IMG/VR virus record: IMGVR_UViG_3300002835_000001
Coordinates: 233,652-297,651 of that record
DNA: 64,000 bases
Strand: one strand, 5' to 3'
Origin: a virus
Taxonomy: Duplodnaviria > Caudoviricetes
Position 1 is the stretch's first letter. Each line of letters starts with the position of its first letter. Shown one piece after another: positions 13,742 through 27,014 of this stretch. The position numbers were made by a program, and so were the translations under genes. The notes under the pieces were generated by a model. It did not search any database, was not told where the DNA came from, and saw only the letters and a list, made by a program, of their open reading frames with translations.

Positions 13742-14216
13742 GAAAAAAAGATTATACTTAGACGATGTTAGAACACCAATTGGAACTGATTGGGTTATTG
13801 TAAGAAATTATGAACATTTTGTTTCTACCATTAGGCTATATGGATTAGAAAATTTTGATGTTATTTCGTTAGACCATGATTTAGGTGATGAGTCTATGGT
13901 TGAATACTATACAAATGTAAAAAATAATTATGTGTTAAATTATGACAATATAGTTGGTGAGAAAACGGGATATGATTGTTGTAAGTTTTTAGTGGCGGAA
14001 AGTATGAGTAAAAAAATACCTTTACCCCAAATTTATGTTCACTCCGCTAATCCAATTGGTAGTGCTAATATGATGGGTTATATTAATAATTATTTAATGA
14101 ATTGTAGTTTACCTCAAACCTGTATTAGAGTTAAAATTGAACACACAATTGATACACCAATGGTACTCTCTCCCGAAGCTAGAAAAGCAAAATGGGATAG
14201 AAGTAACAAAAAATAA
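13731..14216 (+). CDS. Cyclic-phosphate-processing receiver-like domain protein
   Basis: LYLDDVRTP, ISLDHDLG, TGYDCCKFL and HSANPIG. It overlaps the RNA ligase stop. Confidence 0.75.
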   Translation: MKTEKKRLYLDDVRTPIGTDWVIVRNYEHFVSTIRLYGLENFDVISLDHDLGDESMVEYYTNVKNNYVLNYDNIVGEKTGYDCCKFLVAESMSKKIPLPQIYVHSANPIGSANMMGYINNYLMNCSLPQTCIRVKIEHTIDTPMVLSPEARKAKWDRSNKK

Positions 14217-14267: not shown

Positions 14268-14618
14268 ATGTCATACACATCAAAAACAAAAACACCCTAC
14301 AAAACAATGCACATTAAAGGTAAGTATACCGATTTTAATGACTTTTATGACATTAATAAGCAATCGATATATGAAAACATTGTCGAGGTCTTTAAAGGGT
14401 TTAAAGAAACCAAAAAACGTGTTCTGTCCCTATATGTTCAGGCTATCATTCAAGGTTTAGAATGGGACACAGAATTTAAGTTTAATAGAAACGAAACAAT
14501 CGTATTATCTAGAGATGTTATTCCTTTTTTTGAGAGCATCGAAGATTACGAAAAATGTGCTGAAATAAAAAATTTATACGAAGACTTGACTAATGAAAAA
14601 ATATTAGTTACAATTTAA
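14268..14618 (+). CDS. Hypothetical protein with a UVR-like C-terminal motif
   Basis: FFESIEDYEKCAEIKNL. Confidence 0.65.
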   Translation: MSYTSKTKTPYKTMHIKGKYTDFNDFYDINKQSIYENIVEVFKGFKETKKRVLSLYVQAIIQGLEWDTEFKFNRNETIVLSRDVIPFFESIEDYEKCAEIKNLYEDLTNEKILVTI

Positions 14619-14651
14619 ATGTATCAGGAGAGAGGTACATTTATTTTTGTC
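14618..14651 (+). repeat. Direct repeat, left copy (pairs with 26370-26401)
   Basis: AATGTATCAGGAGAGAGGTACATTTATTTTTGTC. Confidence 0.8.
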
Positions 14652-14685
14652 ATGTCCCCGTTGGTTTTTATCAATGGGGATTTTT

Positions 14686-16242
14686 TTATAACATCATTCT
14701 TGACCCAATAAGAAAATTACTTAAGAATGGGGAACCTGGTTTGGTATTACCTCCCAATTTATAATTGAAACTAAATCCAAAACGTTTAGTTATTTTATAA
14801 TCAAATGATGACCCCAATAAAAATCCCATATGTCTATTAACTGTCGTTTCTCCGTTTGTACTATTCCAAGCTATTGGTGAAAACATAGTAAACACCTGCG
14901 GTGATACTGTAAGTTTTTTTGAATAAACATATGGCTTCGTCCAAAATGCGATTGCTGAAGATGCTACATTATAATCATATCCTTTTCCATTATTAAGGAA
15001 TAAATTAATGATACCAACATTATAACCAAATGTTCCTTTTTTAGGTGTTGGCTTAATCCAAGTATAACCTAACAAATTCATATAGTTACCAGCAAGATAA
15101 GCAAATGCTGTTCCATATGAATGTATCGCATCTAAATTACCATCTTTTTTCATTGCCATTTTAGTGTAACCACCCGTTAATACTATTTGACTTAAATCAC
15201 TATTCACCACCATACCTGAACTATAACTTTCATCACCCGCCATAGATGATTTACTTACACCCATTGATATCGATACCAAATATCTATTATCGGGCATTTG
15301 AGATGTTGTTAAGTCAGAAGACATTAATAGTGGATTTGTTACCTCATCTTTCTTCTTCTTTTCTTCCTCTTTCTTCTTCTTTTCTTCTTCTTTCTTTTTC
15401 TCCTCCTCTTTTTTGGTTTCTTCTTTCTTTTCTTCCGATTTCTTTTCCTCGGTTTTAGACTCCTCTTTTTTCTCTTCAGTTTTAGTTTCTGTTTTCTTTT
15501 CTTCTGTTTTACTTTCAGTTTTAGTTTCAGTTTTAGTTTCTTCTGTTTTAGTCTCGGTTTTAGTCTCGGTTTTAGTTTCTGACGATGATGAACCACCACT
15601 ACTTGAAGATGATGAACCGCTACTTGATGAAGAACTACTTGCTGGTGGAGGTGATGAAGAACTACTTGCCGGTGGTGGAGTACTTACTGGTGGGGGCGTT
15701 GAAGCACTACTTGCGGCAGATGATGCCGCACCACTTGCTGCACCACTTGCAGATGAACTTGCGGCTGACGATGCTGCAGAACTCGCAGCTGACGATGCTG
15801 CTCCACTTGCAGATGAACTTGCGGCTGACGCAGCACTAGCCGCCGCAGCATCTGATGCAGCTTTAGCCGCCGCAGCCGCCGCAGCATCTGATGCAGCTTT
15901 AGCCGCCGCAGCCGCCGCAGCATCTGCCGCCGCCCTTGCCGCAGCATCAGCCGCAGCCCTTGCTGCCGCTTGTTGAGCTAAGAAAATTGCATCGTCTTGT
16001 GTTGAACATGGTGTTGCAAATATACTATTAACCCATGTTTGAAACGCACCACTACTGATATCTGCTAATGTTACAATTTTAGATTTACCTCTAATAACAG
16101 CAACGGTTGAGTTTTGTCCGAATGGAATAATAACCACATATACCTTTTGATCACACGGATCAATATATGTTTGTGTTATGGTTTGACCAAACGACTCACT
16201 ACAAAAAAATAATATTAGGAGAGAGATAATATATTTTTTCAT
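14686..16242 (-). CDS. Secreted protein with an Ala/Ser/Lys-Glu stalk and a C-terminal beta-barrel-like domain
   Basis: Signal peptide MKKYIISLLILFFCSESFG, then AAAKAASD, SSS and KTE/KEE tracts. The C-terminus has alternating aromatic strands paralogous to 20805-21698. Confidence 0.75.
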   Translation of the reverse strand: MKKYIISLLILFFCSESFGQTITQTYIDPCDQKVYVVIIPFGQNSTVAVIRGKSKIVTLADISSGAFQTWVNSIFATPCSTQDDAIFLAQQAAARAAADAAARAAADAAAAAAAKAASDAAAAAAAKAASDAAAASAASAASSSASGAASSAASSAASSAASSSASGAASGAASSAASSASTPPPVSTPPPASSSSSPPPASSSSSSSGSSSSSSGGSSSSETKTETKTETKTEETKTETKTESKTEEKKTETKTEEKKEESKTEEKKSEEKKEETKKEEEKKKEEEKKKKEEEKKKKDEVTNPLLMSSDLTTSQMPDNRYLVSISMGVSKSSMAGDESYSSGMVVNSDLSQIVLTGGYTKMAMKKDGNLDAIHSYGTAFAYLAGNYMNLLGYTWIKPTPKKGTFGYNVGIINLFLNNGKGYDYNVASSAIAFWTKPYVYSKKLTVSPQVFTMFSPIAWNSTNGETTVNRHMGFLLGSSFDYKITKRFGFSFNYKLGGNTKPGSPFLSNFLIGSRMML

Positions 16243-16243
16243 T

Positions 16244-17083
16244 TTAAAAATTAATACCTAAACCAAAAGTACCATTACTAATAATTGGGTCGTAATCCAT
16301 TTTTATTGTAAAATTTTTATAATCATGTAAAGCCCCTATTTTTATTGTTGTAAAACGATTTGAATATTTTGGGAATGTTATGTAACCATCATCATCTTTT
16401 CCACGATATCTTACAATCTCGTTAACGTTACCCACCATAAAATGAACTCCCGTTCTTTTAACTCTTTTCCCAAAACCAACATAAAATGAGTTTAATTTAA
16501 CTAAATCATCAACAAGTGGAAAATCAACGAGGTCTAATCTTCCATGTGGATAAAAAGTTGACCTATCATGTGTGAAATTATATTCTGTTATGAAATATCC
16601 TTTGTTACCAATTGTAAAGAATCCACCAATTTGTCTATCTGTTGTTTTTTGAATACCAAAACTTATGATAGGTTTTTTTCCTCTAATAGTATCTCTATTA
16701 CCATTATCATAAACATAAATTCTTGCAGGTTGTCTGTAACCCCAATCGTTCCAATATGGCATTGGAGACCAATAATTCCACCCAAAATTAGGTGCTCCCC
16801 ACATGTCCCATCTATTCCATCCCCAATTGTTCCACCCCTGTCCATAGTTATTCCAATATGGGTCTCTGATTACTATATTTGAACCTCGTCTTGGTTGTGG
16901 TTGTGATTCTTGTGGTGGATTGTTTCTCCAACTACTCACATTGTTTTGTTGTGGTATGGATGGTTGAACTCTTGTTTGAGTTGATTGTGTCTGTGATTGT
17001 GTAGGTGGGTTACTTCTCCAAGTTGATATTTGACCAAATAGAAGTGTTGGTATGAATGTTAAAAATACTAATAGAGTCTTCAT
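16244..17083 (-). CDS. Outer-membrane beta-barrel-like protein with a W/N/G/Q-rich N-terminal region
   Basis: Signal peptide, low-complexity WNNYGQGWNNWGWNRW segment, and a C-terminal strand GTFGLGINF ending in Phe. Confidence 0.7.
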   Translation of the reverse strand: MKTLLVFLTFIPTLLFGQISTWRSNPPTQSQTQSTQTRVQPSIPQQNNVSSWRNNPPQESQPQPRRGSNIVIRDPYWNNYGQGWNNWGWNRWDMWGAPNFGWNYWSPMPYWNDWGYRQPARIYVYDNGNRDTIRGKKPIISFGIQKTTDRQIGGFFTIGNKGYFITEYNFTHDRSTFYPHGRLDLVDFPLVDDLVKLNSFYVGFGKRVKRTGVHFMVGNVNEIVRYRGKDDDGYITFPKYSNRFTTIKIGALHDYKNFTIKMDYDPIISNGTFGLGINF

Positions 17084-17159
17084 AAGTTTGTTTTTATATA
17101 AATATAAAAAAAGGGGGTATTACACCCCCTTTTTTTTATCTTAACTCATTAAAATATGT

Positions 17160-17882
17160 TTATTTTGTAAAAATTCCCTTTTTAATCATTCTATCAAGAA
17201 TGTTAGCACAAGCAATATCTAAAGCTTTTTTGGTTGCAGTACTAATTGTTGATTGGTTGAATTTAATTGGGTCAATCGTTGCGTCAGACAAAAGAGTTAA
17301 TTCTCTTTTTGTTGTTGCCTCACCTAAACCCGATCCACCAAATACAACACCAGTTTCCGCGTTTGTAAATCTAACTTGAAGACCAATACGAGTTACCATA
17401 TTATCTTGTACACCATTTTTAAGGTTCACAGTTTCATCTTCAGATACCGAGTAGTCATAACACTCAATGGTTACAAAATACTCAGCCAAATTGATTTTAC
17501 CACGTCCGTCTAACTTATTCTCAGAAATTCCGGATTGAGATGCTTGAAATTGTTTTACCATACGATTCTTAATTTCTGTCTTGTCTTCAGTAAATTTGAA
17601 TCTGTTTAAGTTTTCAAGATATTCCATAGATATATTTGCAACACCCAAACCAACACGTTTTTCTTTTAATTCAGGATACATCTCATACATCTCATCAGAA
17701 ATGCCCGCCTTTAATATTTGAATTGGAATTTGAGGACCATCGTAGTCCATGTAAGCACTTATATCTCTTTTCTTTTCGAAGTCCGCCTTATAGTCTTCCG
17801 TTTTAGTTTTACCTATTGTTTGTCCGTTAACGACAACAGCGCTTAGTAAAAAAACACTTAATAATGTTAATAATTTTTTCAT
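17160..17882 (-). CDS. CsgG/HfaB-like protein
   Basis: Signal peptide, then GVANISMEYLENLNRF, AEYFVTIECYDY, IGLQVRFTNAETGVVF and ATKKAL, following the CsgG-family secondary-structure pattern. Confidence 0.7.
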   Translation of the reverse strand: MKKLLTLLSVFLLSAVVVNGQTIGKTKTEDYKADFEKKRDISAYMDYDGPQIPIQILKAGISDEMYEMYPELKEKRVGLGVANISMEYLENLNRFKFTEDKTEIKNRMVKQFQASQSGISENKLDGRGKINLAEYFVTIECYDYSVSEDETVNLKNGVQDNMVTRIGLQVRFTNAETGVVFGGSGLGEATTKRELTLLSDATIDPIKFNQSTISTATKKALDIACANILDRMIKKGIFTK

Positions 17883-17895
17883 ACATCTTATTTTA

Positions 17896-18156
17896 TTAAC
17901 CTTCTAATTCTTCTTCTTTCTTTTTGTGAGAGAATTTATCCAAAGTATCGGCACCCATTCCAATTCCCGTTATTAACATCACTGCATTTACCAATTCAGG
18001 TGATGGAGCAAAATCCGCGTGAGAGAACGAATTTAATACCATTGTAACACATAGGAACATTGCACCTACCATTGCTATTACCGGCTTAACCGATATTGAT
18101 CCCCTTTCATCTTTGAAAAGTTCGATAACCCATTCTTTAAATTTCATTTTTGTCAA
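17896..18156 (-). CDS. Small two-TM membrane protein
   Basis: Two hydrophobic helices (VIAMVGAMFLCVTMVL and AVMLITGIGMG). Confidence 0.7.
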   Translation of the reverse strand: MTKMKFKEWVIELFKDERGSISVKPVIAMVGAMFLCVTMVLNSFSHADFAPSPELVNAVMLITGIGMGADTLDKFSHKKKEEELEG

Positions 18157-18175
18157 TTTTTAATTTATATTTATT

Positions 18176-18805
18176 TTATCCTTCCATGTGCATTTCTGCA
18201 TTTTCATCTTTTATTTTACCACACTTTAAACATTCCTCAATCCCATCTCCGTCTAAGTCACCCCAAACGTGATCACATTGTCTATGTGCAAAATACATAT
18301 CAATTTTGCCATCCCCGTCGAAATCTATACCATCCATTATACCATCACCATCTTCATCAACTTCAATACCTGTTCTTGGTTGAACGGTTGGTACTTGTTC
18401 AAACGTATCATTTACCTTTTCGGTTTTTGAATTCTCAATAGCTGTTTGAAACGATTCTGGAATTAGTGGAGTATTGTTTGGTGGAGTTACAGGTAAATCG
18501 GCGGTATTGCTTAACGCCGTACCATCTTCCTCATCCATTTTCTGAACTAACATCTTATCCTTATCCGTATCACTAAACCAATAGTCAATAATTTTACCAT
18601 AAGAACCAATAAAGGCTCCCAATAATAATAGAAGAAGTTCTTTCCATTCTCCTTCTATTGCCGATTTATTTAATATAGCGAAGAACATTCCTCCTATAAT
18701 AAACATAAATCCACCCAATACTAATGCGGTGATGTACCATCTTCTGGCCATCATATTACTTAATAAATCTTTAAATCCACTTGGTGTTTCTTTATTTTCC
18801 GCCAT
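18176..18805 (-). CDS. Two-TM membrane protein with DxDxDG calcium-binding-like repeats
   Basis: TMs are followed by IIDYWF. The C-terminus has DEDGDGIMDG, DFDGDGKID, DLDGDGIEE and a CxH...CxxC motif. Confidence 0.7.
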   Translation of the reverse strand: MAENKETPSGFKDLLSNMMARRWYITALVLGGFMFIIGGMFFAILNKSAIEGEWKELLLLLLGAFIGSYGKIIDYWFSDTDKDKMLVQKMDEEDGTALSNTADLPVTPPNNTPLIPESFQTAIENSKTEKVNDTFEQVPTVQPRTGIEVDEDGDGIMDGIDFDGDGKIDMYFAHRQCDHVWGDLDGDGIEECLKCGKIKDENAEMHMEG

Positions 18806-18825
18806 ATTACTTATTTTTTTTTAAT

Positions 18826-18984
18826 TTATGGTCTATTCCAAGACCATCCTTTTTTTCTACCTCTTATTACTAAATAACTACAACCCCCAATAAAAAATGT
18901 TAAAAACATCAATGGAGAATTAAATACAAACATAGCTATCATGCATAATACAATTACTGCTATAAAACTTAATCCTTGTTCCAT
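18826..18984 (-). CDS. Small membrane protein (not in the ORF track)
   Basis: MEQGLSFIAVIVLCMIAMFVFNSPLMFLTFFIGGCSYLVIRGRKKGWSWNRP*, 52 aa, filling the gap between neighbours. Confidence 0.65.
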   Translation of the reverse strand: MEQGLSFIAVIVLCMIAMFVFNSPLMFLTFFIGGCSYLVIRGRKKGWSWNRP

Positions 18985-18993
18985 TTTAATTTT

Positions 18994-19305
18994 TTACCAC
19001 TTAGGAGCCTCTTCCTTAAACTCATCACCTTCTTTTTTCTTAACCGGTTTTGCGGGTTCTTTAACGGTTTCTTTTTCTTTAATAATAACCGTCTTACCAC
19101 CACCCGCTGATTGTTGTTGAGTTTGTGAATTTGTAATGTTTATTACTGGTGCCGCTTGTACTGGTGCTGGTTCTGATTTGTCACCACCACCTAAAAGTGA
19201 GGCTGCCCATACACCACCTGCGGTTACTATGGTACCCACAGCACCGATAAGTGTTTTCTTTAAACCACTCATTGTTCCTTCTTGTTCTTGTGTTTCTTCT
19301 GACAT
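18994..19305 (-). CDS. Single-TM protein
   Basis: LIGAVGTIVTAGGVWAASLL followed by a low-complexity tail. Confidence 0.7.
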   Translation of the reverse strand: MSEETQEQEGTMSGLKKTLIGAVGTIVTAGGVWAASLLGGGDKSEPAPVQAAPVINITNSQTQQQSAGGGKTVIIKEKETVKEPAKPVKKKEGDEFKEEAPKW

Positions 19306-19335
19306 TGTATTTGTTTTTAGTTTATTTTATTAATA

Positions 19336-20055
19336 TTATGCACCAAACGCTTTAGTAAATCCTTCAGGACAAGTTTTTGTACATATCAAATCTGCAATAA
19401 CTGGTGCAAATGCTGCTCCAATTGCAATACCAACTCCAGCTGGTGTTGCCCATAACTCTGCGGAATCTAAACTTTTACCTAAACAATTTGAAATTATATT
19501 TTTTAATAGTGTGTGGTCAATACTATCACTAACGTATGGTATTGCTAAAAATCCTTCTGTTATAATTTCTGTCATTGCCATTACTACCACCACTTTAGCC
19601 GCTTTATCTGCAACATAAAGAACAGGTGTTGCCATAAGTGATAGAGTGGTTGATGTCGCTGCGCCCGCTGGTTGTTCTGGTGCAAATGCCGCAACACAAC
19701 CCAAACCAATTGCTGCGGTTACTCCTATATTACAAGCATTTTTATCAGCCCATTGATATGCATCAATTACCCCTTCTTTTACTTCTTCGTAACCTTCTTT
19801 AATTACAGACTCTATTTCATTTCCAATATTAATGAGTACTGGTACTACTTCTTCTTCCCACTCTCTACCAGTTACATCTTCAATTCTATGATTTGTTTCA
19901 GGATGGTCGTGTATGTACCTTATTGCTCTATCGGTAAGTCCCCATGATTCACATGTTGAACAAGGGCCGTCACCACCAAATCCATACCATCTTACATTGT
20001 TATCTCCGCAATCTGAGCGATGATAAACTATTCCGTCTCCGTTTCTGTCTGCCAT
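19336..20055 (-). CDS. Hypothetical Cys-containing protein with a hydrophobic C-terminal half
   Basis: 239 aa with several Cys and small-residue-rich hydrophobic helices. Confidence 0.7.
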   Translation of the reverse strand: MADRNGDGIVYHRSDCGDNNVRWYGFGGDGPCSTCESWGLTDRAIRYIHDHPETNHRIEDVTGREWEEEVVPVLINIGNEIESVIKEGYEEVKEGVIDAYQWADKNACNIGVTAAIGLGCVAAFAPEQPAGAATSTTLSLMATPVLYVADKAAKVVVVMAMTEIITEGFLAIPYVSDSIDHTLLKNIISNCLGKSLDSAELWATPAGVGIAIGAAFAPVIADLICTKTCPEGFTKAFGA

Positions 20056-20075
20056 AATTTTTATTTTTTAATTTT

Positions 20076-20456
20076 TTAGTTTATTTTATTGAAATCTGTT
20101 ATTCCTAATTGTTTATTATTAGAATCGAATAACCCTATTCTGTATGCTGATGATGGTAATGCGTTAGTGTATACCTTTAAAAGGTTATCACCCGCAATTA
20201 CGTTCATTGTTTCTTTAGATACCACCCTATTGGAAATGTCAAATATTTTAATCGTTACCGGACCTGCGGTTTCAATTTTAACGTTCATCGCCACTTCTGA
20301 AGTGACAAATGATGATTGTAATTTAATACCAATAGAACTTGTCATTTTCAGGTCTTCTGATATTGATTGAGGTGTAGGTAAGATATCGTCCTTATAACAT
20401 CCTGTTAAAATTGTGGATACCAATACTAATAAGAGAATCTTTTTCATTTTTGTCAT
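20076..20456 (-). CDS. Lipoprotein with an Ig-like domain resembling a T9SS C-terminal/FlgD domain
   Basis: Lipobox LTGC, then VTIKIFDISNRVV...LPSSAYRIGL. Confidence 0.65.
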   Translation of the reverse strand: MTKMKKILLLVLVSTILTGCYKDDILPTPQSISEDLKMTSSIGIKLQSSFVTSEVAMNVKIETAGPVTIKIFDISNRVVSKETMNVIAGDNLLKVYTNALPSSAYRIGLFDSNNKQLGITDFNKIN

Positions 20457-20459
20457 TTT

Positions 20460-20801
20460 TTAATTTACTATTATTGTTGTCTTTTTTAATTCTTTTTTAT
20501 CCACATCCTCAAGTACTAAATATAAATATCCCTTGGGTAATGAATTGGTATAAATCTTTTTTTCATTTTTACCTATTTGACCAATAAACTTTTCTCGACT
20601 TATTACTTGTCCACTATTTTTATCGATTAAAATTAAATAATGAACAGTATTAGAGGTTAAATCAAAAAAAATTGATTGACCATTTGTTACACTACTTTCA
20701 CCCACATTGAATATTTTTTCAACAGGAGGAGTTGGGGTTGGGATATCCATCTTAGTACAACCCCATAGTAAAATCACAAATATGAATAGTATTTTTTTCA
20801 T
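20460..20801 (-). CDS. Lipoprotein with an Ig-like domain, paralog of 20076-20456
   Basis: Lipobox LWGC. IYTNSLPKGYLYL here compares with VYTNALPSSAYRI in the neighbour. Confidence 0.65.
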   Translation of the reverse strand: MKKILFIFVILLWGCTKMDIPTPTPPVEKIFNVGESSVTNGQSIFFDLTSNTVHYLILIDKNSGQVISREKFIGQIGKNEKKIYTNSLPKGYLYLVLEDVDKKELKKTTIIVN

Positions 20802-20804
20802 ATG

Positions 20805-21698
20805 TTAAAATTGAAAGTTTGTTCCTATCATAAACATTATTGGATTACTCTTTTTATACCCAACCGATTCGCTCAATTTGTCAAAAGTTGTGTTATATCT
20901 AATATTAGTATTCAAAATGAACCTTTTAGTTATTTTCCAATCAAACGATGTTCCATAATATAAATCTAAATTAAAATCATCAAAATATGATAAATCCGAT
21001 GTCGTACCATCTTTAAATACTTTATAGACATCACTCATTGCAAATATTTGCGGTGATATGTTTACCCTTTTTGTTTTCAATGTATATGTGTACATTACCA
21101 TACCTCTATAACTTATTTCACTTGATGCCGGCACCATTGGATATATTAAATCTTTAAAATCACCATTTTCATCTACCGTATATTTTCCTTCCCATTGACC
21201 TTCATATGTTCCCCAAAAAGATTTTGATGCAATTAAACTATATCCAAATGTTCCAAACTTTTTAGTTCTGAATACATCTATGAATGATAGTGTAATATCT
21301 TTTTGGAAATCAAAATCGGTTGAATAAAATGATTGTAATGTAGTAGTTCTCTTATCTGTATTTCTAGTGAAACCATATCCTACTCCATAATATTTCCATA
21401 TAGGGTTTATTGACGCTGCGAATGTGTGTCCCCATTGACCATTCATAGATGATTTATTGTAACCCAAATTAAGAGTAGTTGATACTTGTCTACCAATTAT
21501 ACCAACTGAAAGATTTGATGATGATAGAACATCTTTTGAAAAATTAACATAGGATTGTAATATACCCACATCGTTCCAATCATCACTTTCCCCAAATAAT
21601 TCCTTTGGTGATAGTTGTAATGTATCGGGTTTTTGTATTTGTGCGTTTGTCACAAATGTTGTCGAAATTAGTGACAGAATTATTATTAGTTTTTTCAT
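20805..21698 (-). CDS. Outer-membrane beta-barrel-like protein
   Basis: Signal peptide, amphipathic strands and a terminal MIGTNFQF. Confidence 0.72.
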   Translation of the reverse strand: MKKLIIILSLISTTFVTNAQIQKPDTLQLSPKELFGESDDWNDVGILQSYVNFSKDVLSSSNLSVGIIGRQVSTTLNLGYNKSSMNGQWGHTFAASINPIWKYYGVGYGFTRNTDKRTTTLQSFYSTDFDFQKDITLSFIDVFRTKKFGTFGYSLIASKSFWGTYEGQWEGKYTVDENGDFKDLIYPMVPASSEISYRGMVMYTYTLKTKRVNISPQIFAMSDVYKVFKDGTTSDLSYFDDFNLDLYYGTSFDWKITKRFILNTNIRYNTTFDKLSESVGYKKSNPIMFMIGTNFQF

Positions 21699-23992
21699 TA
21701 GTTCATTTTTACTTTTAATTGTATTCCATTCTTATTGACGGCATCGGTTGTTGATATTGAAGTTAAACCCAAAGTACCACTCAATCCTATTAATGGTAAA
21801 AATGTTATTTTATATTCTGTTGTTTTATCCAATAATGTTGAACCATCAGTAATCAATGAACCTAATGTTATTGATGAACCTCTATTAGTTCCAAAATTGG
21901 TAGGAGTTCCATTTGTGGTGAATTCTACCTTTTCAAACTTTAATGCTGTATTATCGTAGTTTAAATTGAATTGAGTACCAACCAACTCTTGTTGTAAAGG
22001 GTCTACCGAAATCGTTACTACTAATTTACCACCAATGTTTTCACCCATTAGATATGCGTTGATTTGATTGGAAACTGAATTAGTACCCAAACTCATAGTT
22101 CTAATAGAATTACTAGCAACACCACTTGTACTTTGTTGTGCTGAATGAGATAGGTTTACATCACCAAGCCAAGTAACATTAACATTGTATGTGTTATTAA
22201 GTGTACCCGTATTTAAACTAAACGGATATAAACTTCTTGTTGAATTAAATTTGGTATTCCAATTAGATTTAGTAATCCCATCATAATCTGATTTACTATA
22301 AAGTTTCATCAGAAAAGTTAATAGTGGATTTTGTGTAAGTGGTTGAACTCCTGTTAAATGTTGTAATAGTTTATATGTATCTGCTTCGTTGAATATACCA
22401 TTACCATCAACGTCCGCATTAATAAATTGAATACCGTTTGTAAATTCATTTCCACTTTCATTTCCAAATATTCCACCATTTGATAATTCTTTGAAGGCAA
22501 TAAAGACATCCGATACGGTCACAATACTATTGTATAAAGTGTTTAAATCCGTTTGATTGGTGTATGTTAACTCAATCCCATGTTGTTTATATGACATTAT
22601 TGGTGAGAAAGTAAATTCTGCTCTTGTTCCATACCAACCATCTTGTAATCTTAATTGTGCCTGAAATGTGGATGATGTTATCTTAGTTGTCAAATTACCG
22701 GGCATTATATAAGTTTTCCAAAACCCACTTACACTATGAATACTAACCGGTCCATCGTATATATCAAATAATTTAACTGATGTTATATCACTTGGAGATA
22801 CTCCTGTCCCATCAAATTCCCTTTCGTCTATTAATAATTGATGCCCACCTAAATTTGCATCATACGGATTTATTATTGCCCATTCAACTTGTCCTGCAGT
22901 TGTTGACGCTTTAGTACCAATACCACTTACCTTTGCAGTATCTAAATCATTTGTAATGTCAACCTTACCCAATCCACTTATTGCTCGTGATGTGTTGGTT
23001 GTTGTACTCCATAGATTATTTACATATCTATTTGCCTTTGTTGAGAATTTAGTTTCATCTATATTACTCCCAAAATCAAAATTAAATTTAGCGGTTAAAA
23101 CTTCACCATTTGAATGAGATACACTATTGGTATAAAATTCAGTAAATGTTGCATCATCGGGATTAGACCAAGTTCCATATTCAATTATGTATGGATTAGT
23201 CCAATTATTTGATAAATCATTCCAAGTTGATGCACCACCCCAATTTGTTACCGCATAATCCTCACTATGATTATATCCATTAGGTTCACCACCTGCCCAG
23301 TTGTTATACACACCAGGTCTATTTCCTGCCGTCTGTCCATTTGATGTTTTCATAACAGTTCCTTTTTCAGGTCCCGCATCAATTACCCAAGTTCCATCTA
23401 TAACCTCATCTGTTGCTGCAAACCATATATTAGCTTGTGGTACGTTAGAAAATATAAAAGCATTTTCAGATGCCGATGTTATTGTTACTAAATAACCTGT
23501 CTGTCCTTTGAATGTTGTTAATAACGATGCCGATCTAGCACCAGTATAAGTTGTACCTGCCGTTACGGGTTTATAAAAATGACCATTTACACCATTGTAA
23601 TAAAATCCTGTTGGATTGATTGTTGCAGCAACCGATAATTTTACATTACCAACTACCGAACCTGTGTTTATTTTTAGGGATGTCAATGCCGTATTGATAC
23701 TTGCCATTGTACCCGTTATTACTAAACGAGTTTTATTACCACTTAAAGTAAATCCACTTGCAGCAGTTAGACCCGTTGTTGTGTTCAATACGAATGTTGT
23801 ACCTGTTGGAAATTCTACTAAACTAATTGATGCTAATAAAGTTGACGTTGAACTAAACCCACTTAAAACAAAACCACTAGCATCTTGTGCACTAGTGGAT
23901 TGTAAAAAAGACTTAGAGTCCGGAGCAGATACACTCTGTCCGAACCCTAAGAATGATGTAAATAAAAATAATATTAAAAATAATTTCTTCAT
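21698..23992 (-). CDS. Secreted multidomain adhesin-like protein with C-type lectin, dockerin-like and cohesin-like domains
   Basis: Signal peptide. Lectin signature GHFY...YLVTITSASEN...IWF...YNNWAGGEPN...WNDL. Dockerin-like ADVDGNGIFNEADTYKLLQHL. Cohesin-like GTQFNLNYDNTALKF. Confidence 0.75.
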   Translation of the reverse strand: MKKLFLILFLFTSFLGFGQSVSAPDSKSFLQSTSAQDASGFVLSGFSSTSTLLASISLVEFPTGTTFVLNTTTGLTAASGFTLSGNKTRLVITGTMASINTALTSLKINTGSVVGNVKLSVAATINPTGFYYNGVNGHFYKPVTAGTTYTGARSASLLTTFKGQTGYLVTITSASENAFIFSNVPQANIWFAATDEVIDGTWVIDAGPEKGTVMKTSNGQTAGNRPGVYNNWAGGEPNGYNHSEDYAVTNWGGASTWNDLSNNWTNPYIIEYGTWSNPDDATFTEFYTNSVSHSNGEVLTAKFNFDFGSNIDETKFSTKANRYVNNLWSTTTNTSRAISGLGKVDITNDLDTAKVSGIGTKASTTAGQVEWAIINPYDANLGGHQLLIDEREFDGTGVSPSDITSVKLFDIYDGPVSIHSVSGFWKTYIMPGNLTTKITSSTFQAQLRLQDGWYGTRAEFTFSPIMSYKQHGIELTYTNQTDLNTLYNSIVTVSDVFIAFKELSNGGIFGNESGNEFTNGIQFINADVDGNGIFNEADTYKLLQHLTGVQPLTQNPLLTFLMKLYSKSDYDGITKSNWNTKFNSTRSLYPFSLNTGTLNNTYNVNVTWLGDVNLSHSAQQSTSGVASNSIRTMSLGTNSVSNQINAYLMGENIGGKLVVTISVDPLQQELVGTQFNLNYDNTALKFEKVEFTTNGTPTNFGTNRGSSITLGSLITDGSTLLDKTTEYKITFLPLIGLSGTLGLTSISTTDAVNKNGIQLKVKMN

Positions 23993-23995
23993 AAA

Positions 23996-25651
23996 TTACT
24001 CCACTGTCAAATTTATCTTGTTTCCGTTTCCGTCAACAGCATCAGATAAAACTGTATAGAATAAACCCGCAGTGTTTGTTATGGTTTCTTTTGGTGTAAA
24101 TGTTAATTTATATGGTGTACCTGTTTTAATTCTTGCGGTTTTTGTTTGATCCATAGAACCAAATGTTAATCTACCATCTCCGTTTGTTGAGAAGTTAGTT
24201 ACGATTGGTCCCGCGTCAAATGAAATATTATCAAAAGTTAATTTAGAATTATCATATTGTAATATAACCTCCAAACCAGCTAAACCTTCTTTTGTTAAAT
24301 TACCTGTCAATACAACCTTACCGTTAACTATTGTAGAGGTTAAACTTAATTTAGCGGTTTCAAATACTTGATTATATGACATTGATTGAACTGACATTGA
24401 TTTATTATTATCATTGACGGAATTAACAAAATTACCACTTGCAACTCTACTTGCAATTTCGGTTGCGGATGATGAATGAGACCAATCTAAATCACCTCCC
24501 CATGCAAATACCATATCTACTACTTTAATAGGAGTATCGATTATAACTTTATTTTTTATAACACCATTTAACCAATTTTGATTTAATAAACCACTATACC
24601 ATCTTACATTTTCAGATGTGGTGGTTGATTTTGGAATTTTTGCACTAGAAGATACATCTATTCCCATTACATGTGCGAATGTATAATATGAATCCGATTC
24701 ACTAAACGCACTATTGGCGTTTGTAACTCTTGCAATCATTTTTTCTAAATTAGGATATACAAAGTATGTTTGTGTACCTGAAATATCTACTTGTGAAATA
24801 CCTAAGAATGATTTATATGCGTCCGATACGGTTATAATATTATTCATAAATGTTTTAGTCCCCGTTGGTTGGACGTATACACCAAAAGTATCTCCCACCT
24901 TAACTTCAGTTGTGAATATTGCTTCACCAGTTGCATCCAATACCTTTTGAGCTATTGGTTGTTTAGTCCAATCTATATCACCACTAGCATCAGTTTTAAG
25001 TGGCATCAATTGTATATTATGACTAGTTATACTATATCCTGTTGGAAATAAAACTCTAACTTTGAATTGAGAAGTATTACCCGATACATTTGATAAAGAT
25101 ATTGTGCCCGGATTAGTTGTGATTGGAGTAATATACTCACTCGTAGCATTGATGGAATATGATAAATCTAATTTATGAATATTTGTATAATCAACTAAAT
25201 CTTTGATTACATATTTTTGAGTTGCAATATCACCATTGATTGACGCATCGGTTCTTTGTACTGTCAATTGTCCGGCGTTCCAATCTGCGTTAGCCACATA
25301 TCCCCACGGAGTTGCTAAATATTGTGCATATAAACTTGTAGCAGTAATACCATTTGCTGTACTTGGTGTAAATTTATACCCTGACCAACCAGTATAAAAT
25401 GTTTGTACTGATGAACCTTGTGAGAATACAGTAGAAACATATGATAATGCTTTATTGTTGAATTGGTATCTTAACCAAAAATAACGAGGGGTAGTCGTAC
25501 CTCTATCAATTGTATACTTCACCGAAAGAGTATCACCAACTTTTAAGTTTGAAGTGGGTGAAAACGATTGGTTAATTGTCAATTGAGCAAATGATGTAAA
25601 CGTAATTAGGGATAGGGTTAGTATCACTATGAGTGTTAATAGTTTTTTCAT
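23996..25651 (-). CDS. Secreted protein with cohesin-like domains, paralog of 21698-23992
   Basis: Signal peptide. RYQFNNKALSY and LEVILQYDNSKLTF. Shares IITVSDAY/IVTVSDVF and a DAVxxNG terminus with the neighbour. Confidence 0.72.
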   Translation of the reverse strand: MKKLLTLIVILTLSLITFTSFAQLTINQSFSPTSNLKVGDTLSVKYTIDRGTTTPRYFWLRYQFNNKALSYVSTVFSQGSSVQTFYTGWSGYKFTPSTANGITATSLYAQYLATPWGYVANADWNAGQLTVQRTDASINGDIATQKYVIKDLVDYTNIHKLDLSYSINATSEYITPITTNPGTISLSNVSGNTSQFKVRVLFPTGYSITSHNIQLMPLKTDASGDIDWTKQPIAQKVLDATGEAIFTTEVKVGDTFGVYVQPTGTKTFMNNIITVSDAYKSFLGISQVDISGTQTYFVYPNLEKMIARVTNANSAFSESDSYYTFAHVMGIDVSSSAKIPKSTTTSENVRWYSGLLNQNWLNGVIKNKVIIDTPIKVVDMVFAWGGDLDWSHSSSATEIASRVASGNFVNSVNDNNKSMSVQSMSYNQVFETAKLSLTSTIVNGKVVLTGNLTKEGLAGLEVILQYDNSKLTFDNISFDAGPIVTNFSTNGDGRLTFGSMDQTKTARIKTGTPYKLTFTPKETITNTAGLFYTVLSDAVDGNGNKINLTVE

Positions 25652-25656
25652 TTTTA

Positions 25657-26307
25657 TTATTTTTTATCCATTAATTTATTTATTAGTTTTTCACTAGCCT
25701 TTTTGAGAGCATTACTTAAAGATGTCTGATTAAATGAACCTCCTTCGTCAACAATAAGTGTTGACATAGAAACTTCAGATGATGACTCCTCAACAATAAG
25801 TTCTTTTTCTTTTTTACCGTCTTTTGTTAATGTTCCTTTCAATCTAATAACCACTTCTTCCTCACCAGAATGGAAAACCGATATGTTCTTCTTTGTTGTA
25901 AGAACGTCTAAATAAACAATTTGTACTTTTAATTTGTATGGAGATGATGCCGATAAATCGTAACCCTTTTCTTGTAAAAACTCTTCTAATATGTTTTTAA
26001 CCCCAAATGCTAAATTTCTATTACCTGCTAGTTTACCAATTTTAACCTCATTGGTTACACTTTCGACCCAAATGTGGTCGTCGGCATCGTACCAAATATT
26101 TTCAGGGGAGTTTTTGAATGTACCATCGATTCTCCATTCAATCCAATTTATTACGTTTCTCTGTAATTCATGTTTACCTGAAAATTCTAAATAAACGAAG
26201 AATAATTGAAAACACAGTGCGAATGCAATCCAAAACCCAACTAATGATAAAAATATCATAGCAAGTTTGTCGCCAATGTTAATAGTAAGTGATTTGATTT
26301 TTTCCAT
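25657..26307 (-). CDS. Membrane-anchored protein, possible CsgG-like paralog
   Basis: N-terminal TM. It ends FNQTSLSNALKKA, comparable with FNQSTISTATKKA in 17160-17882. Confidence 0.55.
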   Translation of the reverse strand: MEKIKSLTINIGDKLAMIFLSLVGFWIAFALCFQLFFVYLEFSGKHELQRNVINWIEWRIDGTFKNSPENIWYDADDHIWVESVTNEVKIGKLAGNRNLAFGVKNILEEFLQEKGYDLSASSPYKLKVQIVYLDVLTTKKNISVFHSGEEEVVIRLKGTLTKDGKKEKELIVEESSSEVSMSTLIVDEGGSFNQTSLSNALKKASEKLINKLMDKK

Positions 26308-26369
26308 AAGGTTCTAAGTTTTTTTACCCACTCAGAACCACATATTAATATCATATTAATATAATATGT

Positions 26370-26401
26370 AATGTATTGAGAGAGATACATTTATTTTTGT
26401 C
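26370..26401 (+). repeat. Direct repeat, right copy (pairs with 14618-14651)
   Basis: AATGTATTGAGAGAGATACATTTATTTTTGTC. Confidence 0.8.
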
Positions 26402-26489
26402 CCTTATAAATATCAAGATATGGTAACTAGTCAAAAAAAATTTATTAAAATATTTTTAACTTTTTCTTGTTTATATATATATTTATTGT

Positions 26490-26693: not shown

Positions 26694-26768
26694 AGGGTAA
26701 TGGACTAATGGCTAAGTCACTTGCTTTGGGAGCAAGGCATCATGGAGGTTCGAGTCCTCTTTACCCTA
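26694..26768 (+). tRNA. tRNA-Pro(TGG)
   Basis: Acceptor AGGGTAA/TTACCCT, anticodon arm CTTGC-TT TGG GA-GCAAG, T-loop TTCGAGT. Confidence 0.92.
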
Positions 26769-26773
26769 CAAAC

Positions 26774-26845: not shown

Positions 26846-26850
26846 CAAAC

Positions 26851-26922: not shown

Positions 26923-26929
26923 CAATAAT

Positions 26930-27009: not shown

Positions 27010-27014
27010 CATAT

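What the first reader, a model, noticed from the sequence alone, without database searches (positions are those of the whole stretch)
14618..26401. 11.7-kb host-surface remodelling cassette: CsgG-like pores, beta-barrels and lectin/dockerin/cohesin adhesins
Seen: 14 co-oriented genes, almost all with signal peptides, lipoboxes or TMs. They form paralog pairs: two barrel-bearing proteins (GTFGY...SPQ.F.M...FD.KITKRF), two cohesin/dockerin-bearing secreted proteins, two Ig-like lipoproteins and two CsgG-like proteins. Known: CsgG forms an outer-membrane secretion channel and csgG/csgF homologs occur in some marine phages; cohesin-dockerin pairs assemble surface complexes. Inference: the phage builds an outer-membrane adhesin or scaffold system on infected cells, which could serve aggregation, superinfection exclusion or grazer evasion. 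A TATTTATA motif (26405-26412) suggests late expression.
Basis: partly seen in the sequence, partly recalled or inferred. Interest (0 to 1): 0.85.

Follow-up and report, generated by a model that had tools for sequence, protein, structure and literature searches.

The report
Phage operon that redecorates host surface
A large lake phage of Bacteroidota carries a conserved, probably late-expressed 14-gene operon whose products all go to the host cell envelope, including sugar-binding adhesins copied from the host's type IX secretion (T9SS) cargo. It probably changes the surface of the infected cell, and nobody has described it.

Summary
Fourteen co-oriented genes (14686-26307, minus strand) encode 8 proteins with cleavable Sec signals and 6 membrane proteins, and all four paralog pairs are real.

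The parts:
- g297 is a 12-stranded outer-membrane barrel (KdgM Z 17.2, NalP 16.5). g518 carries a paralogous barrel behind an N-domain and a disordered stalk.
- g764 has an EPN/WND C-type lectin head that is 46-50% identical to chromosomal Bacteroidota T9SS adhesins.
- g551 and g764 end in dockerin-like then cohesin-like modules. That is the order in host Dockerin-Cohesin-CTD proteins, but the T9SS sorting domain (CTD) is missing.
- The two "Ig-like lipoproteins" are bare T9SS type-A CTDs (hhalign 96%, E 2e-9).
- Relatives show a fission pattern. Cohesin and CTD are fused in Flavobacterium phage immuto and in locus L154. Elsewhere there is one CTD lipoprotein per CTD-less cohesin protein.

"CsgG-like" holds only at superfold level (CsgG/PelC/LptE). 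There is no Pfam CsgG match, no lipobox and no evidence of a pore.

The operon is conserved in hundreds of phage contigs and sits behind the motif that also precedes portal, terminase and endolysin genes.

Best reading: a late surface-display module that uses or interferes with host T9SS. Its purpose is untested. This scan noted the same module in other genomes; I found no publication describing it.

The parts
26405..26412 (-). TATTTATA motif (sense of the operon), candidate late promoter of transcription unit 1
   Evidence: The same motif lies within about 30 nt upstream of the portal, terminase, 6828-7892, 39194-40450, endolysin 54086-54928 and g279 genes (one search names the endolysin). 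Its function is inferred.
26370..26401 (-). Hairpin (AATGTA..TACATT) in the predicted 5' leader; near-identical copy at 14618-14651
   Evidence: The 16-mer TACATTTATTTTTGTC occurs exactly twice in the window. Role unknown.
25657..26307 (-). g216: N-terminal membrane anchor plus periplasmic YajG/LptE/CsgG-superfold domain
   Evidence: All 9 orthologs tested hit Pfam PF03923 (best E 3.9e-6, below the curated cut-off for the window copy). Atlas features agree. Homolog of immuto gene 19 (E 4e-6).
23996..25651 (-). g551: secreted 551-aa adhesin-like protein with a degenerate dockerin-like segment (about 262-335) and a C-terminal cohesin-like domain (about 422-551); no CTD
   Evidence: Paralog of g764 (E 1e-20). 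3 of 14 orthologs hit Pfam Cohesin. The joint C-terminal profile hits solved cohesins (4ums, E 7e-4). This domain folded at pLDDT 81-86.
21698..23992 (-). g764: secreted 764-aa adhesin with an N-domain, a C-type lectin (about 137-272, EPN and WND motifs), a dockerin-like segment (about 480-560) and a cohesin-like domain (about 630-764); no CTD
   Evidence: Lectin_C in 14 of 14 orthologs (best E 1.5e-6), Dockerin_1 in 7 of 14, Cohesin in 5 of 14 (best E 3.6e-5). Hits solved C-type lectins (CEL-I, E 5.7e-5). Residues 10-294 are 46-50% identical to chromosomal T9SS adhesins.
20805..21698 (-). g297: 12-stranded outer-membrane beta-barrel; accessory, as it is absent from compact variants
   Evidence: Model pLDDT 70. 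VIA-align: KdgM Z 17.2, NalP 16.5, BrkA 16.3, FapF 16.2. All top Foldseek PDB hits are OM barrels. The protein ends in an aromatic residue (F). The family is small: 28 representative clusters.
20460..20801 (-). g113: lipoprotein whose mature part is a bare T9SS type-A C-terminal sorting domain
   Evidence: Lipobox LLWGC. hhalign of the family against 32 CTDs: prob 96.2%, E 2e-9, 77 columns; controls 0.5% or less. Local CTD HMM E 4.9e-5.
20076..20456 (-). g126: paralogous lipoprotein, also a bare T9SS CTD, with C-Y-K-D-D after the lipid-attachment Cys
   Evidence: Local CTD HMM E 4.2e-6. Its ortholog gives the only Por_Secre_tail-like hit in the complete relative genome G001.
19336..20055 (-). 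g239: protein with an N-terminal Cys-rich soluble part and three hydrophobic segments; variable presence
   Evidence: Weak PHROG hit to 'tail fiber protein/lysozyme' (E 1.8e-6). Found in 19 of 83 complete related cassettes.
18994..19305 (-). g103: single-pass membrane protein with a Lys/Glu/Pro-rich tail; core gene
   Evidence: Found in 80 of 83 related cassettes. 59% identical to immuto gene 16 over the N-terminal 49 residues.
18826..18984 (-). g52: small hydrophobic membrane protein
   Evidence: Detected in few relatives. It is short, so detection is weak.
18176..18805 (-). g209: membrane-anchored protein with three D-x-D-G-D-G calcium-loop-like repeats and a Cys-x-x-Cys pair
   Evidence: Only a weak EF-hand likeness (troponin C, E 0.11). 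Found in 72 of 83 related cassettes.
17896..18156 (-). g86: small membrane protein
   Evidence: Median 92% identity where present.
17160..17882 (-). g240: secreted periplasmic protein (SPI signal, no lipobox) of the CsgG/PelC/LptE superfold; the most conserved gene of the block
   Evidence: Median 85% identity across relatives. 53% identical to immuto gene 17 (E 2.6e-85). Atlas features are nearest CsgG/HfaB/LpoB clusters (0.94). A low-confidence model (pLDDT 51) has CsgG as top Foldseek hit (E 6.6e-4), with VIA Z 6-6.7 for HpaA-like, CsgG, PelC and LptE. hhalign against 29 Bacteroidota CsgG: prob 20%, E 1.1e-3.
17097..17136 (-). Intrinsic terminator-like hairpin (17136-17106) followed by a second TATTTATA motif (17097-17104): boundary between two transcription units
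16244..17083 (-). g279: secreted protein with a Trp/Asn/Gly-rich N-part and a C-terminal beta-rich part ending in Phe, probably a small OM barrel; fast-evolving
   Evidence: Sequence. Median 44% identity among relatives. No family or PDB match. The barrel reading is inferred from sequence pattern only.
14686..16242 (-). g518: autotransporter-like layout of signal peptide, about 80-aa two-Cys N-domain, about 220 aa of Ala/Ser/Pro/Thr/Glu/Lys low complexity, and a C-terminal barrel paralogous to g297; core gene
   Evidence: The N-domain is homologous to immuto gene 18 (E 2.7e-6). The barrel part is 50-78% identical in relatives.

Best explanation
What it is: a conserved operon of a large T4-like phage of Bacteroidota (Flavobacteriia-type hosts). 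It probably runs as two late transcription units and sends all 14 of its products to the host envelope.

Shown:
- Eight products carry cleavable Sec signals of the Bacteroidota type and six are membrane proteins.
- g297 is a 12-stranded OM barrel. g518 carries a paralogous barrel behind an N-domain and a long disordered stalk.
- g764 bears a C-type lectin head with EPN/WND motifs that is homologous to chromosomal T9SS adhesins.
- g551 and g764 end in dockerin-like then cohesin-like modules, as host Dockerin-Cohesin-CTD surface proteins do, but without the T9SS sorting domain (CTD).
- g113 and g126 are lipoproteins made of a bare T9SS CTD.
- In relatives the cohesin protein and the CTD are either fused, or split one-to-one.

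Inferred mechanism:
1. Late in infection the proteins are exported by Sec, and the barrels are inserted by the host BAM complex.
2. The lectin and cohesin proteins join through cohesin-dockerin contacts.
3. They are brought to, or held at, the cell surface with the help of the host type IX secretion system. The CTD lipoproteins stand in for the lost cis CTD, as adaptor or anchor.
4. The stalked barrel g518 and the CsgG/LptE-like periplasmic proteins g240 and g216 act as the fixed machinery.

Net effect: the infected cell's surface carries phage-chosen sugar-binding proteins. The likeliest purposes are sticking to neighbouring host cells or particles, or masking glycan or T9SS-dependent receptors.
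For: Phage context:
- Portal phrog_213 at E 8.4e-62, and a terminase.
- Nearest cultured relatives include Flavobacterium phage immuto.

Export signals:
- They are enriched inside the block (p 1e-4).

Barrel and lectin:
- Barrel.
- Lectin.
- Host adhesin homology: g764 residues 10-294 are 46-50% identical to a 1921-aa chromosomal protein that has a CHU_C T9SS domain and is followed by PorP/SprF.

Cohesin and dockerin:
- Host proteins hit by the cohesin profile are arranged Dockerin_1, then Cohesin, then Por_Secre_tail.

CTD identity of g113/g126:
- hhalign prob 96.2%, E 2e-9; controls 0.5% or less.

Fusion and fission pattern:
- Immuto gene 15 is a signal peptide plus Cohesin plus Por_Secre_tail, both above Pfam cut-offs.
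- The L154 variant has the cohesin-like domain fused to a CTD (E 6.9e-9) and no CTD lipoprotein.
- Compact variants have one cohesin protein followed by one CTD lipoprotein.
- The window has two of each.

Conservation:
- 100 and 520 related stretches in IMG/VR.
- Gene order is conserved.
- g240 and g297 are about 85-87% identical across relatives, against 69% for the phage RNA ligase.

Promoter:
- The motif is shared with portal, terminase and endolysin genes.

Cohesin-dockerin fold test:
- g551 cohesin with g764 dockerin gave weak support: score 0.40 against a best control of 0.06.
- That mark was reached by 58 of 80 solved complexes and 2 of 110 mismatched pairs. At 0.60 or under it was reached by only 7 of the 80 solved complexes and by both mismatches.
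- The runs agree in at least 5% of contacts, and the partner's pLDDT is at least 49.
- Cohesin-dockerin complexes are solved, so this pass may come from the model's memory.
Against: - No protein was localised and no expression data were obtained. The read-laying run was blocked.
- g551 and g764 have no CTD, and it is unknown how they would cross the outer membrane. They could stay in the periplasm.
- No known case exists of a T9SS CTD working in trans or on a lipoprotein.
- g297 shows no profile similarity to PorP/SprF (hhalign prob 9%).
- The g240 fold call rests on a poor model (pLDDT 51), with Z values under 8.
- In immuto the homologous cluster lies downstream of replication genes, so late timing may not be general.
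- The dockerin-like segment of g551 lacks the canonical calcium loops.
Confidence: 0.55

Rival explanations
1. T9SS jamming or receptor shut-off. The membrane-tethered bare CTDs (g113, g126) act as decoys that occupy the PorV/SprA translocon. The rest of the module coats the surface. Host T9SS-dependent surface proteins, which are common phage receptors in Flavobacteria, then stop appearing. The result is superinfection exclusion, or protection of progeny from adsorbing to debris.
For: - g113 and g126 consist of little more than a CTD.
- Phage resistance in Flavobacterium psychrophilum arises mostly through mutations in gliding-motility genes, and reverting them restores susceptibility (PMC9804748). 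That these are T9SS-dependent surface functions is from my memory of the field.
- The lectin could mask glycans.
Against: - The one-to-one count of CTD lipoproteins and CTD-less cohesin proteins, and the fused forms in L154 and immuto, point to a cargo-linked role rather than a free decoy.
- Fused forms would be ordinary cargo, not blockers.
Confidence: 0.15
2. A curli-like (type VIII-like) secretion system. g240 forms a CsgG-type oligomeric pore in the outer membrane and exports the low-complexity or aromatic-rich proteins (g279, the g518 stalk) or the adhesins.
For: - Atlas features are nearest CsgG/HfaB clusters.
- CsgG is the top Foldseek hit.
- hhalign gives a collinear 208-column alignment at E 1.1e-3, against controls of 0.016-0.03.
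- Pelagimyophages carry CsgG/CsgF clusters (PMC7029224).
Against: - No Pfam CsgG match in the window proteins (E 0.1 or less) or in the complete relative genome (E 1 or less).
- No lipobox on g240.
- No CsgE, CsgF or CsgA-like hits.
- The structure match does not separate CsgG from PelC, LptE or HpaA (Z 6-6.7).
- No evidence of transmembrane hairpins or of an oligomer.
Confidence: 0.1
3. An envelope-disruption or lysis-support module. The small membrane proteins (g52, g86, g103, g209) act as holin, antiholin or spanin-like factors, and the OM proteins weaken the outer membrane at lysis.
For: - The promoter motif is shared with an endolysin gene.
- A signal-bearing glucosaminidase lies 1.1 kb away.
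- Five small membrane proteins sit in the middle of the block.
Against: - No PHROG lysis hit for the ten larger cassette proteins scanned. The four smallest, including three of the membrane proteins this rival invokes, were not scanned against PHROGs.
- Lectin, cohesin and CTD modules are not expected in lysis systems.
- The lipoproteins are folded beta-sandwich domains, unlike the o-spanins I know of (from memory).
Confidence: 0.07
4. Virion (tail fibre or baseplate) proteins misread as exported proteins.
For: - Lectin and Ig-like domains are common in phage fibres (from memory).
- g239 has a weak PHROG 'tail fiber/lysozyme' hit.
- The promoter is of the late type.
Against: - Eight cleavable Sec signals with Gln at +1 or a lipobox, conserved in orthologs.
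- OM barrel fold.
- T9SS CTDs.
- Virions assemble in the cytoplasm.
Confidence: 0.03

Closest known systems
Bacteroidota T9SS cell-surface adhesins with C-terminal Dockerin-Cohesin-CTD, and CHU_C adhesins paired with PorP/SprF
   Same: - The g764 head (N-domain plus C-type lectin) is 46-50% identical to such chromosomal proteins.
- The order dockerin then cohesin is the same.
- In the host, a roughly 296-aa OM barrel gene follows the adhesin gene, as g297 follows g764.
   Different: - The phage proteins lack the CTD, which is instead encoded as separate lipoproteins.
- g297 shows no detectable similarity to PorP/SprF.
- The phage proteins are much shorter.
Phage-encoded T9SS cargo of 'Cryophage' (Bellas et al. 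2020, PMC7468147)
   Same: A phage of Bacteroidota encodes proteins with T9SS type-A sorting domains, presumed to hijack host secretion.
   Different: - There the cargo are enzymes in variable islands.
- Here it is a conserved multi-gene module with barrels, CsgG-superfold proteins, cohesin/dockerin modules and CTD-only lipoproteins.
CsgG/CsgF 'curli' cluster of pelagimyophages (Zaragoza-Solas et al. 2020, PMC7029224)
   Same: A conserved cluster of envelope and secretion proteins of unknown role in T4-like aquatic phages. An aggregation ('sibling capture') idea was proposed for it.
   Different: - Those are recognisable CsgG and CsgF homologs close to proteobacterial ones.
- Here there is no Pfam CsgG match, no CsgF, and a different host phylum.
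Cellulosome cohesin-dockerin assemblies
   Same: The C-terminal domain profile hits solved cohesins (4ums, 3l8q, 5lxv). There is a D-x-D-x-N-G dockerin loop in g764.
   Different: - The matches are weak (E 7e-4).
- There are no enzymes.
- Binding has only weak model support.
- The setting is a Gram-negative envelope.
Beta-barrel outer membrane proteins of huge phages (Yuan and Chen 2026, bioRxiv 10.64898/2026.10.24.761521); also phage OMPs in BFVD
   Same: Phage-encoded OM barrels with envelope-related neighbours, many from freshwater.
   Different: That survey does not mention CsgG, lectin, cohesin, dockerin or T9SS.
Type Va autotransporters
   Same: g518 has the layout signal peptide, N-terminal passenger, linker and C-terminal barrel. 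Its g297-type barrel matches NalP, BrkA, AIDA-I and Hbp translocators at Z 16-16.5.
   Different: - The same model matches KdgM and NanC porins and FapF equally well.
- There is no Pfam Autotransporter hit.
- The passenger is an 80-aa domain on a disordered stalk.

Membership tests
CsgG (Pfam PF03783, curli secretion channel) | Sequence match to the family model | tested here: not met
   No hit at E 0.1 or less for g240 or g216. No hit at E 1 or less anywhere in the complete relative genome G001, while the control genomes did match.
CsgG (Pfam PF03783, curli secretion channel) | Shared fold of the periplasmic alpha/beta domain | tested here: inconclusive
   The model has pLDDT 51. CsgG is the top Foldseek hit (E 6.6e-4). 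VIA Z is 6.7 for CsgG, tied with HpaA-like, PelC and LptE. hhalign prob 20%, E 1.1e-3.
CsgG (Pfam PF03783, curli secretion channel) | N-terminal lipobox (CsgG is a lipoprotein) | tested here: not met
   g240 has an SPI-type signal ending NGQ with no Cys. g216 has an uncleaved membrane anchor.
CsgG (Pfam PF03783, curli secretion channel) | Nonameric ring with transmembrane hairpins; CsgE/CsgF/CsgA partners | not testable with these tools
   The oligomer was not modelled. No CsgE, CsgF or CsgA Pfam hit among the 14 proteins.
T9SS type-A C-terminal sorting domain (Por_Secre_tail, PF18962) | Profile similarity over the whole domain | tested here: met
   The g113/g126 family against 32 CTDs: hhalign prob 96.2%, E 2e-9, 77 of 91 columns; four control profiles 0.5% or less. 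13 of 27 members hit PF18962, though below its cut-off (best E 9e-4).
T9SS type-A C-terminal sorting domain (Por_Secre_tail, PF18962) | Located at the C-terminus of a Sec-exported cargo protein | tested here: not met
   In the window the domain is the whole mature part of a lipoprotein, with no passenger. The feature is met in relatives: immuto gene 15 and L154 6696-8606.
T9SS type-A C-terminal sorting domain (Por_Secre_tail, PF18962) | Recognition by PorV/SprA and cleavage by PorU | not testable with these tools
   Needs experiment.
Cohesin (PF00963) | Sequence match to the family model or to solved cohesins | tested here: inconclusive
   The window copies give no Pfam hit at E 0.1 or less. 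5 of 14 g764 orthologs (best E 3.6e-5) and 3 of 14 g551 orthologs do hit. The joint profile hits solved cohesins first (4ums, E 7e-4). The immuto gene 15 cohesin is above the Pfam cut-off.
Dockerin type I (PF00404) | Duplicated calcium-binding loop-helix segment | tested here: inconclusive
   7 of 14 g764 orthologs hit at best E 0.018. g764 has one canonical D-V-D-G-N-G loop, and the g551 segment is degenerate. Binding to the g551 cohesin has weak support only: score 0.40 against a best control of 0.06.
C-type lectin (PF00059) | Domain match plus calcium/sugar-binding EPN and WND motifs | tested here: met
   14 of 14 orthologs hit (best E 1.5e-6). The window copy scores 22.2 bits against a cut-off of 22.6. 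The profile hits solved lectins (CEL-I, E 5.7e-5). EPN and WND are present in g764. Sugar binding was not tested.
PorP/SprF (PF11751) | Sequence or profile similarity | tested here: not met
   No Pfam hit. hhalign of the g297 family against 12 PorP/SprF proteins gives prob 9% over 24 columns. Only the gene position after an adhesin gene is alike.
12-stranded outer-membrane beta-barrels (KdgM/NanC porins, autotransporter translocators, FapF) | Closed antiparallel barrel of 12 strands with a C-terminal aromatic residue | tested here: met
   g297 model residues 52-297: KdgM Z 17.2 (rmsd 2.1 over 157 residues), NalP Z 16.5, a designed 12-stranded barrel Z 13.3. The protein ends in F. Which subfamily it belongs to is not resolved.
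YajG / Lipoprotein_16 (PF03923) | Sequence match to the family model | tested here: inconclusive
   9 of 9 g216 orthologs hit, best E 3.9e-6. The window copy scores 21.8 bits against a cut-off of 25 and covers 64 of 159 model positions.

The most novel reading that the evidence does not exclude
A split type IX secretion signal. In this phage clade the CTD has been cut off the cohesin-bearing adhesins and re-encoded as a lipid-anchored stand-alone domain, one per adhesin. It would then work in trans. It might dock the folded adhesin complex to the T9SS translocon for piggy-back export. Or it might replace the usual LPS anchor with a lipoprotein anchor. Either would be the first trans-acting T9SS sorting domain, and a virus-made way of loading foreign cargo onto a host secretion system.
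Probability: 0.22. Interest if true: 0.88.

Novelty: new variant of a known kind. Interest (0 to 1): 0.72.

Why it matters
Phages are known to encode single outer-membrane proteins, lipoproteins and, in one report, T9SS cargo. This is different in scale. It is a whole conserved operon, found in hundreds of contigs of a very abundant lake phage group and, in compact form, in a cultured Flavobacterium phage.

The operon appears to equip the dying host with sugar-binding surface proteins built from host adhesin parts. If that is so, infection changes how Bacteroidota cells stick to each other, to particles or to phages, which bears on aggregation, carbon flux and superinfection in lakes and seas.

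The fused and split cohesin/CTD forms give a natural experiment on how the T9SS recognises cargo. The cultured pair, phage immuto and Flavobacterium sp. LMO8, makes this directly testable.

Tried and rejected
- **Near-identical phages:** megablast of the block against 50,697 phage records found no match.
- **PHROGs:** no family for nine of the ten larger proteins scanned, g239 being the one hit. The four smallest were not scanned.
- **NCBIfam:** nothing meaningful.
- **g240 fold:** with an 18-row alignment the model reached only pLDDT 51, so its matches are leads only.
- **g240 close homologs:** 5772 clusters were found, but all 120 listed are 84% identical or more, so the search added no diversity.
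- **Solved structures by sequence:** no match for the g240 family profile, the g551 family profile (only a chance ribosomal hit), g239 or g279.
- **PorP/SprF idea for g297:** rejected at profile level (prob 9%).
- **Cellular homologs:** the g240 family and the g551 family were not found in the 401 Bacteroidota genomes searched. Only signal peptides matched.
- **Expression:** six metatranscriptome runs hold small shares (0.06-0.14) of the sampled words.
- **Sigma-70 scan:** not enriched (54 sites against 63 expected).
- **g216/g240 paralogy from window-clade alignments alone:** weak (21 columns, prob 15%). It improved only after immuto homologs were added.
- **'Lipobox plus bare CTD' in three host genomes:** I looked at the small CTD-bearing ORFs. 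The only complete one has an SPI signal, not a lipobox.

Full report
**Context**

The window is part of a large tailed phage. It holds a T4-type portal (phrog_213, E 8.4e-62), a large terminase, an Rnl1-type RNA ligase and a ClpA-like ATPase. It also holds 12 tRNAs and a tmRNA. G+C is about 32%. The portal's nearest cultured relatives include Flavobacterium phage immuto, at 36% identity.

Relatives are very common in public data:
- 100 and 520 related stretches were found in IMG/VR for two cassette proteins, on contigs up to 335,630 bp.
- The 335,630-bp contig is rated 100% complete by CheckV.
- The g240 family has 5772 clusters at 90% identity.
- Near-identical DNA sits in lake-water metagenomes.

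**Observation**

Fourteen ORFs lie head to tail on the minus strand from 26307 to 14686. I name each by its length in residues.
- Six have signal-peptidase-I signals with Gln at +1: g518, g279, g240, g297, g764, g551. From memory, Bochtler et al. 2018 describe this as typical of Bacteroidota.
- Two have lipoboxes: g113 and g126.
- Six have TM segments.
- Signal-like N-termini are enriched inside the block (8 of 14 against 3 of 48, p 1e-4).

All four paralog pairs are real.

**Transcription**

The motif TATTTATA, read in gene sense, lies 98 nt upstream of g216. It also lies 3-30 nt upstream of the portal, terminase, a tape-measure-like gene, an endolysin and others. It occurs 27 times in the window against 15 expected.

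A 14-bp-stem terminator followed by a second copy of the motif separates g240 from g279. I infer two late transcription units, g216 to g240 and g279 to g518. This is inference from sequence; I obtained no RNA evidence.

**Barrels**

The g297 model (pLDDT 70) matches 12-stranded OM barrels: KdgM Z 17.2, NalP 16.5, BrkA 16.3, AIDA-I 16.2, FapF 16.2. All top Foldseek hits in PDB and AFDB are OM barrels.
- The family is small and viral, with 28 representative clusters in an exhaustive HMMER search.
- g518 has a paralogous barrel behind an 80-aa two-Cys domain and about 220 residues of low complexity. That is an autotransporter-like layout.
- The barrel reading of g279 is inferred from sequence pattern only.

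**CsgG-like proteins**

For g240, three weak and partly independent lines point to the CsgG/PelC/LptE/HpaA superfold:
- Language-model features are nearest CsgG/HfaB/LpoB clusters (0.94).
- Foldseek on a poor model puts CsgG first (E 6.6e-4). VIA Z is 6-6.7 for HpaA-like, CsgG, PelC and LptE, all under 8.
- hhalign against 29 Bacteroidota CsgG proteins gives a collinear 208-column alignment (prob 20%, E 1.1e-3), against 1.6-2.8% for the controls.

The defining features of CsgG itself are not met. There is no Pfam match, even in a complete relative genome. There is no lipobox, and there are no CsgE or CsgF partners.

g216 is a membrane-anchored YajG/LptE-like domain: 9 of 9 orthologs hit PF03923. 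So 'CsgG-like pores' is not established. A periplasmic partner of a barrel, in the way LptE works with LptD or PelC with PelB, is equally possible.

**Adhesins**

g764 has a C-type lectin with EPN and WND motifs, and 14 of 14 orthologs hit Lectin_C. Its first 290 residues are 46-50% identical to parts of chromosomal Bacteroidota proteins. One of these, in a Sphingobacteriaceae MAG, is a 1921-aa protein with L-type lectin, cadherin and He_PIG domains and a CHU_C T9SS domain. It is followed directly by a 296-aa PorP/SprF gene.

g551 and g764 share a C-terminal 290 residues.
- The last 130 residues hit solved cohesins first (4ums, E 7e-4), and some orthologs hit Pfam Cohesin.
- About 100 residues upstream lies a dockerin-like segment. 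It is canonical in g764 and degenerate in g551.
- Chromosomal proteins found with the cohesin profile have the order Dockerin_1, Cohesin, Por_Secre_tail.
- The phage proteins keep that order but stop after the cohesin, as do all 26 orthologs examined.

A fold test of the g551 cohesin with the g764 dockerin gave weak support only.
- The score was 0.40 against a best control of 0.06.
- That mark was reached by 58 of 80 solved complexes and 2 of 110 mismatched pairs. At 0.60 or under it was reached by only 7 of the 80 solved complexes and by both mismatches.
- The runs agree in at least 5% of their contacts, and the partner's pLDDT is at least 49.
- The pass may reflect likeness to solved cohesin-dockerin complexes.

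**The CTD lipoproteins**

I tested this.
- A profile of 27 family members aligns over 77 of 91 columns with an alignment of 31 Bacteroidota type-A CTDs plus the immuto one. The result is prob 96.2%, E 2e-9. Four other cassette profiles score 0.5% or less.
- An HMM of the CTDs hits g126 at E 4.2e-6 and g113 at E 4.9e-5.
- In the complete relative genome, the only CTD-like hit is the g126 ortholog.
- g126 has C-Y-K-D-D after the lipid-attachment Cys. From memory (Lauber et al. 2016), this fits the Bacteroidota lipoprotein surface-export signal.

**Comparative evidence**

Flavobacterium phage immuto carries a compact homologous cluster:
- a lectin protein (Lectin_C, E 1.9e-15);
- a signal-bearing protein ending in a dockerin-like loop;
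- a protein made of signal peptide, Cohesin and Por_Secre_tail, with both domains above Pfam cut-offs;
- a g103 homolog;
- a g240 homolog (53% identity);
- a g518 homolog;
- a g216 homolog.

Within the window's own clade the gene order is conserved in most of the 83 loci that hold both ends. The informative variants are these:
- **Compact variants** have one cohesin-ended protein followed directly by one g113/g126-type lipoprotein, and no g297.
- **L154** has the cohesin-like domain fused to a CTD (E 6.9e-9) and no lipoprotein.

So the number of CTD lipoproteins equals the number of CTD-less cohesin proteins: 2:2 in the window, 1:1 in compact variants and 0:1 in fused forms. This fusion/fission pattern links the two functionally. 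The core set is g216, cohesin protein(s), g103, g209, g240 and g518.

Evolutionary rates fit this picture. g240 and g297 are more conserved (85-87% median identity) than the phage RNA ligase (69%). The adhesins, g279 and the g518 stalk evolve fast, as expected for fixed machinery against exposed parts.

**Interpretation**

Shown: this is an envelope-targeted, conserved phage module, built partly from host T9SS adhesin parts.

Inferred: it places lectin-bearing complexes at the cell surface late in infection, using cohesin-dockerin contacts and the host T9SS, with the CTD supplied in cis or, after fission, on a lipoprotein.

Rivals:
- T9SS jamming or receptor shut-off. Phage resistance in Flavobacterium psychrophilum maps mostly to gliding-motility genes (PMC9804748), functions that from my memory depend on T9SS.
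- A curli-like secretion system.
- A lysis-support role.
- Virion parts (very unlikely).

**Novelty**

Single phage OMPs, huge-phage OMP barrels (bioRxiv 10.64898/2026.10.24.761521), phage T9SS cargo (PMC7468147) and pelagimyophage CsgG/CsgF clusters (PMC7029224) are known. I found no description of this module in my literature searches.

This scan has noted the same kind of cassette in several other genomes, with similar follow-up readings. I reached the T9SS link from my own tests before seeing those follow-ups, apart from the CTD lead.

Noticed in passing
window 14618-14651 and 26370-26401: A near-identical hairpin element flanks the operon at both ends. Its 16-mer TACATTTATTTTTGTC occurs exactly twice in the window. 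On the plus strand it reads as a hairpin plus T-run. From memory, it also contains TATTTTTG, which fits the Bacteroidota -7 promoter pattern TAnnTTTG. At 26386 it would point toward the tRNA array.
   Followed up: partly
window 26694-31111 and 34561-34967: An array of 12 tRNA genes and a tmRNA gene with tag ATSNVEVA lies just beyond the operon's promoter, on the opposite strand.
   Followed up: no
window 12040-14216: An RNA-repair trio lies next to the cassette: a P-loop kinase (AAA_33), an Rnl1-type RNA ligase (phrog_562) and a cyclic-phosphate receiver domain protein (PF20274, E 3.1e-22).
   Followed up: no
window 27434-27916 and 54086-54928: There are two cell-wall hydrolases. One is a glucosaminidase with a hydrophobic signal-like N-terminus (PF01832, E 3.2e-16). 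The other is an endolysin (phrog_181, E 1.4e-69), preceded by the TATTTATA motif.
   Followed up: partly
window 29815-30264 and 49236-49838: Two further small proteins outside the cassette have Bacteroidota-type signal peptides with Gln at +1. Their function was not examined.
   Followed up: no
window-wide, e.g. 2710, 4539, 7926, 40469, 54954, 56741, 59637: TATTTATA, read in gene sense, recurs 3-30 nt upstream of start codons of packaging, lysis and unknown genes. There are 27 copies against 15 expected. In several cases it is so close to the ATG that the transcripts would have very short leaders.
   Followed up: partly
L161 (JBIPMA010000251.1, 3368 bp): A short contig with a g764 ortholog (73% identity) is binned in a Schleiferiaceae (Flavobacteriales) MAG from a lake time series. 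It is probably a phage fragment. It gives a weak hint at the host family.
   Followed up: no
L154 12290-13165; L185 8800-9798: In some relatives the lectin head is a separate gene, after g518 in L154 and first in the cluster in immuto. It is not fused to the dockerin/cohesin protein, so the heads look swappable.
   Followed up: partly
window 9542-11614: A 690-aa ClpA/Lon-like ATP-dependent protease ATPase is present (phrog_4871, E 2.2e-242). A ClpA gene is listed among the widely shared gene groups of the 'moraphage' lineage of large aquatic Bacteroidota phages (PMC12619734). Whether this phage belongs to that lineage was not tested.
   Followed up: no
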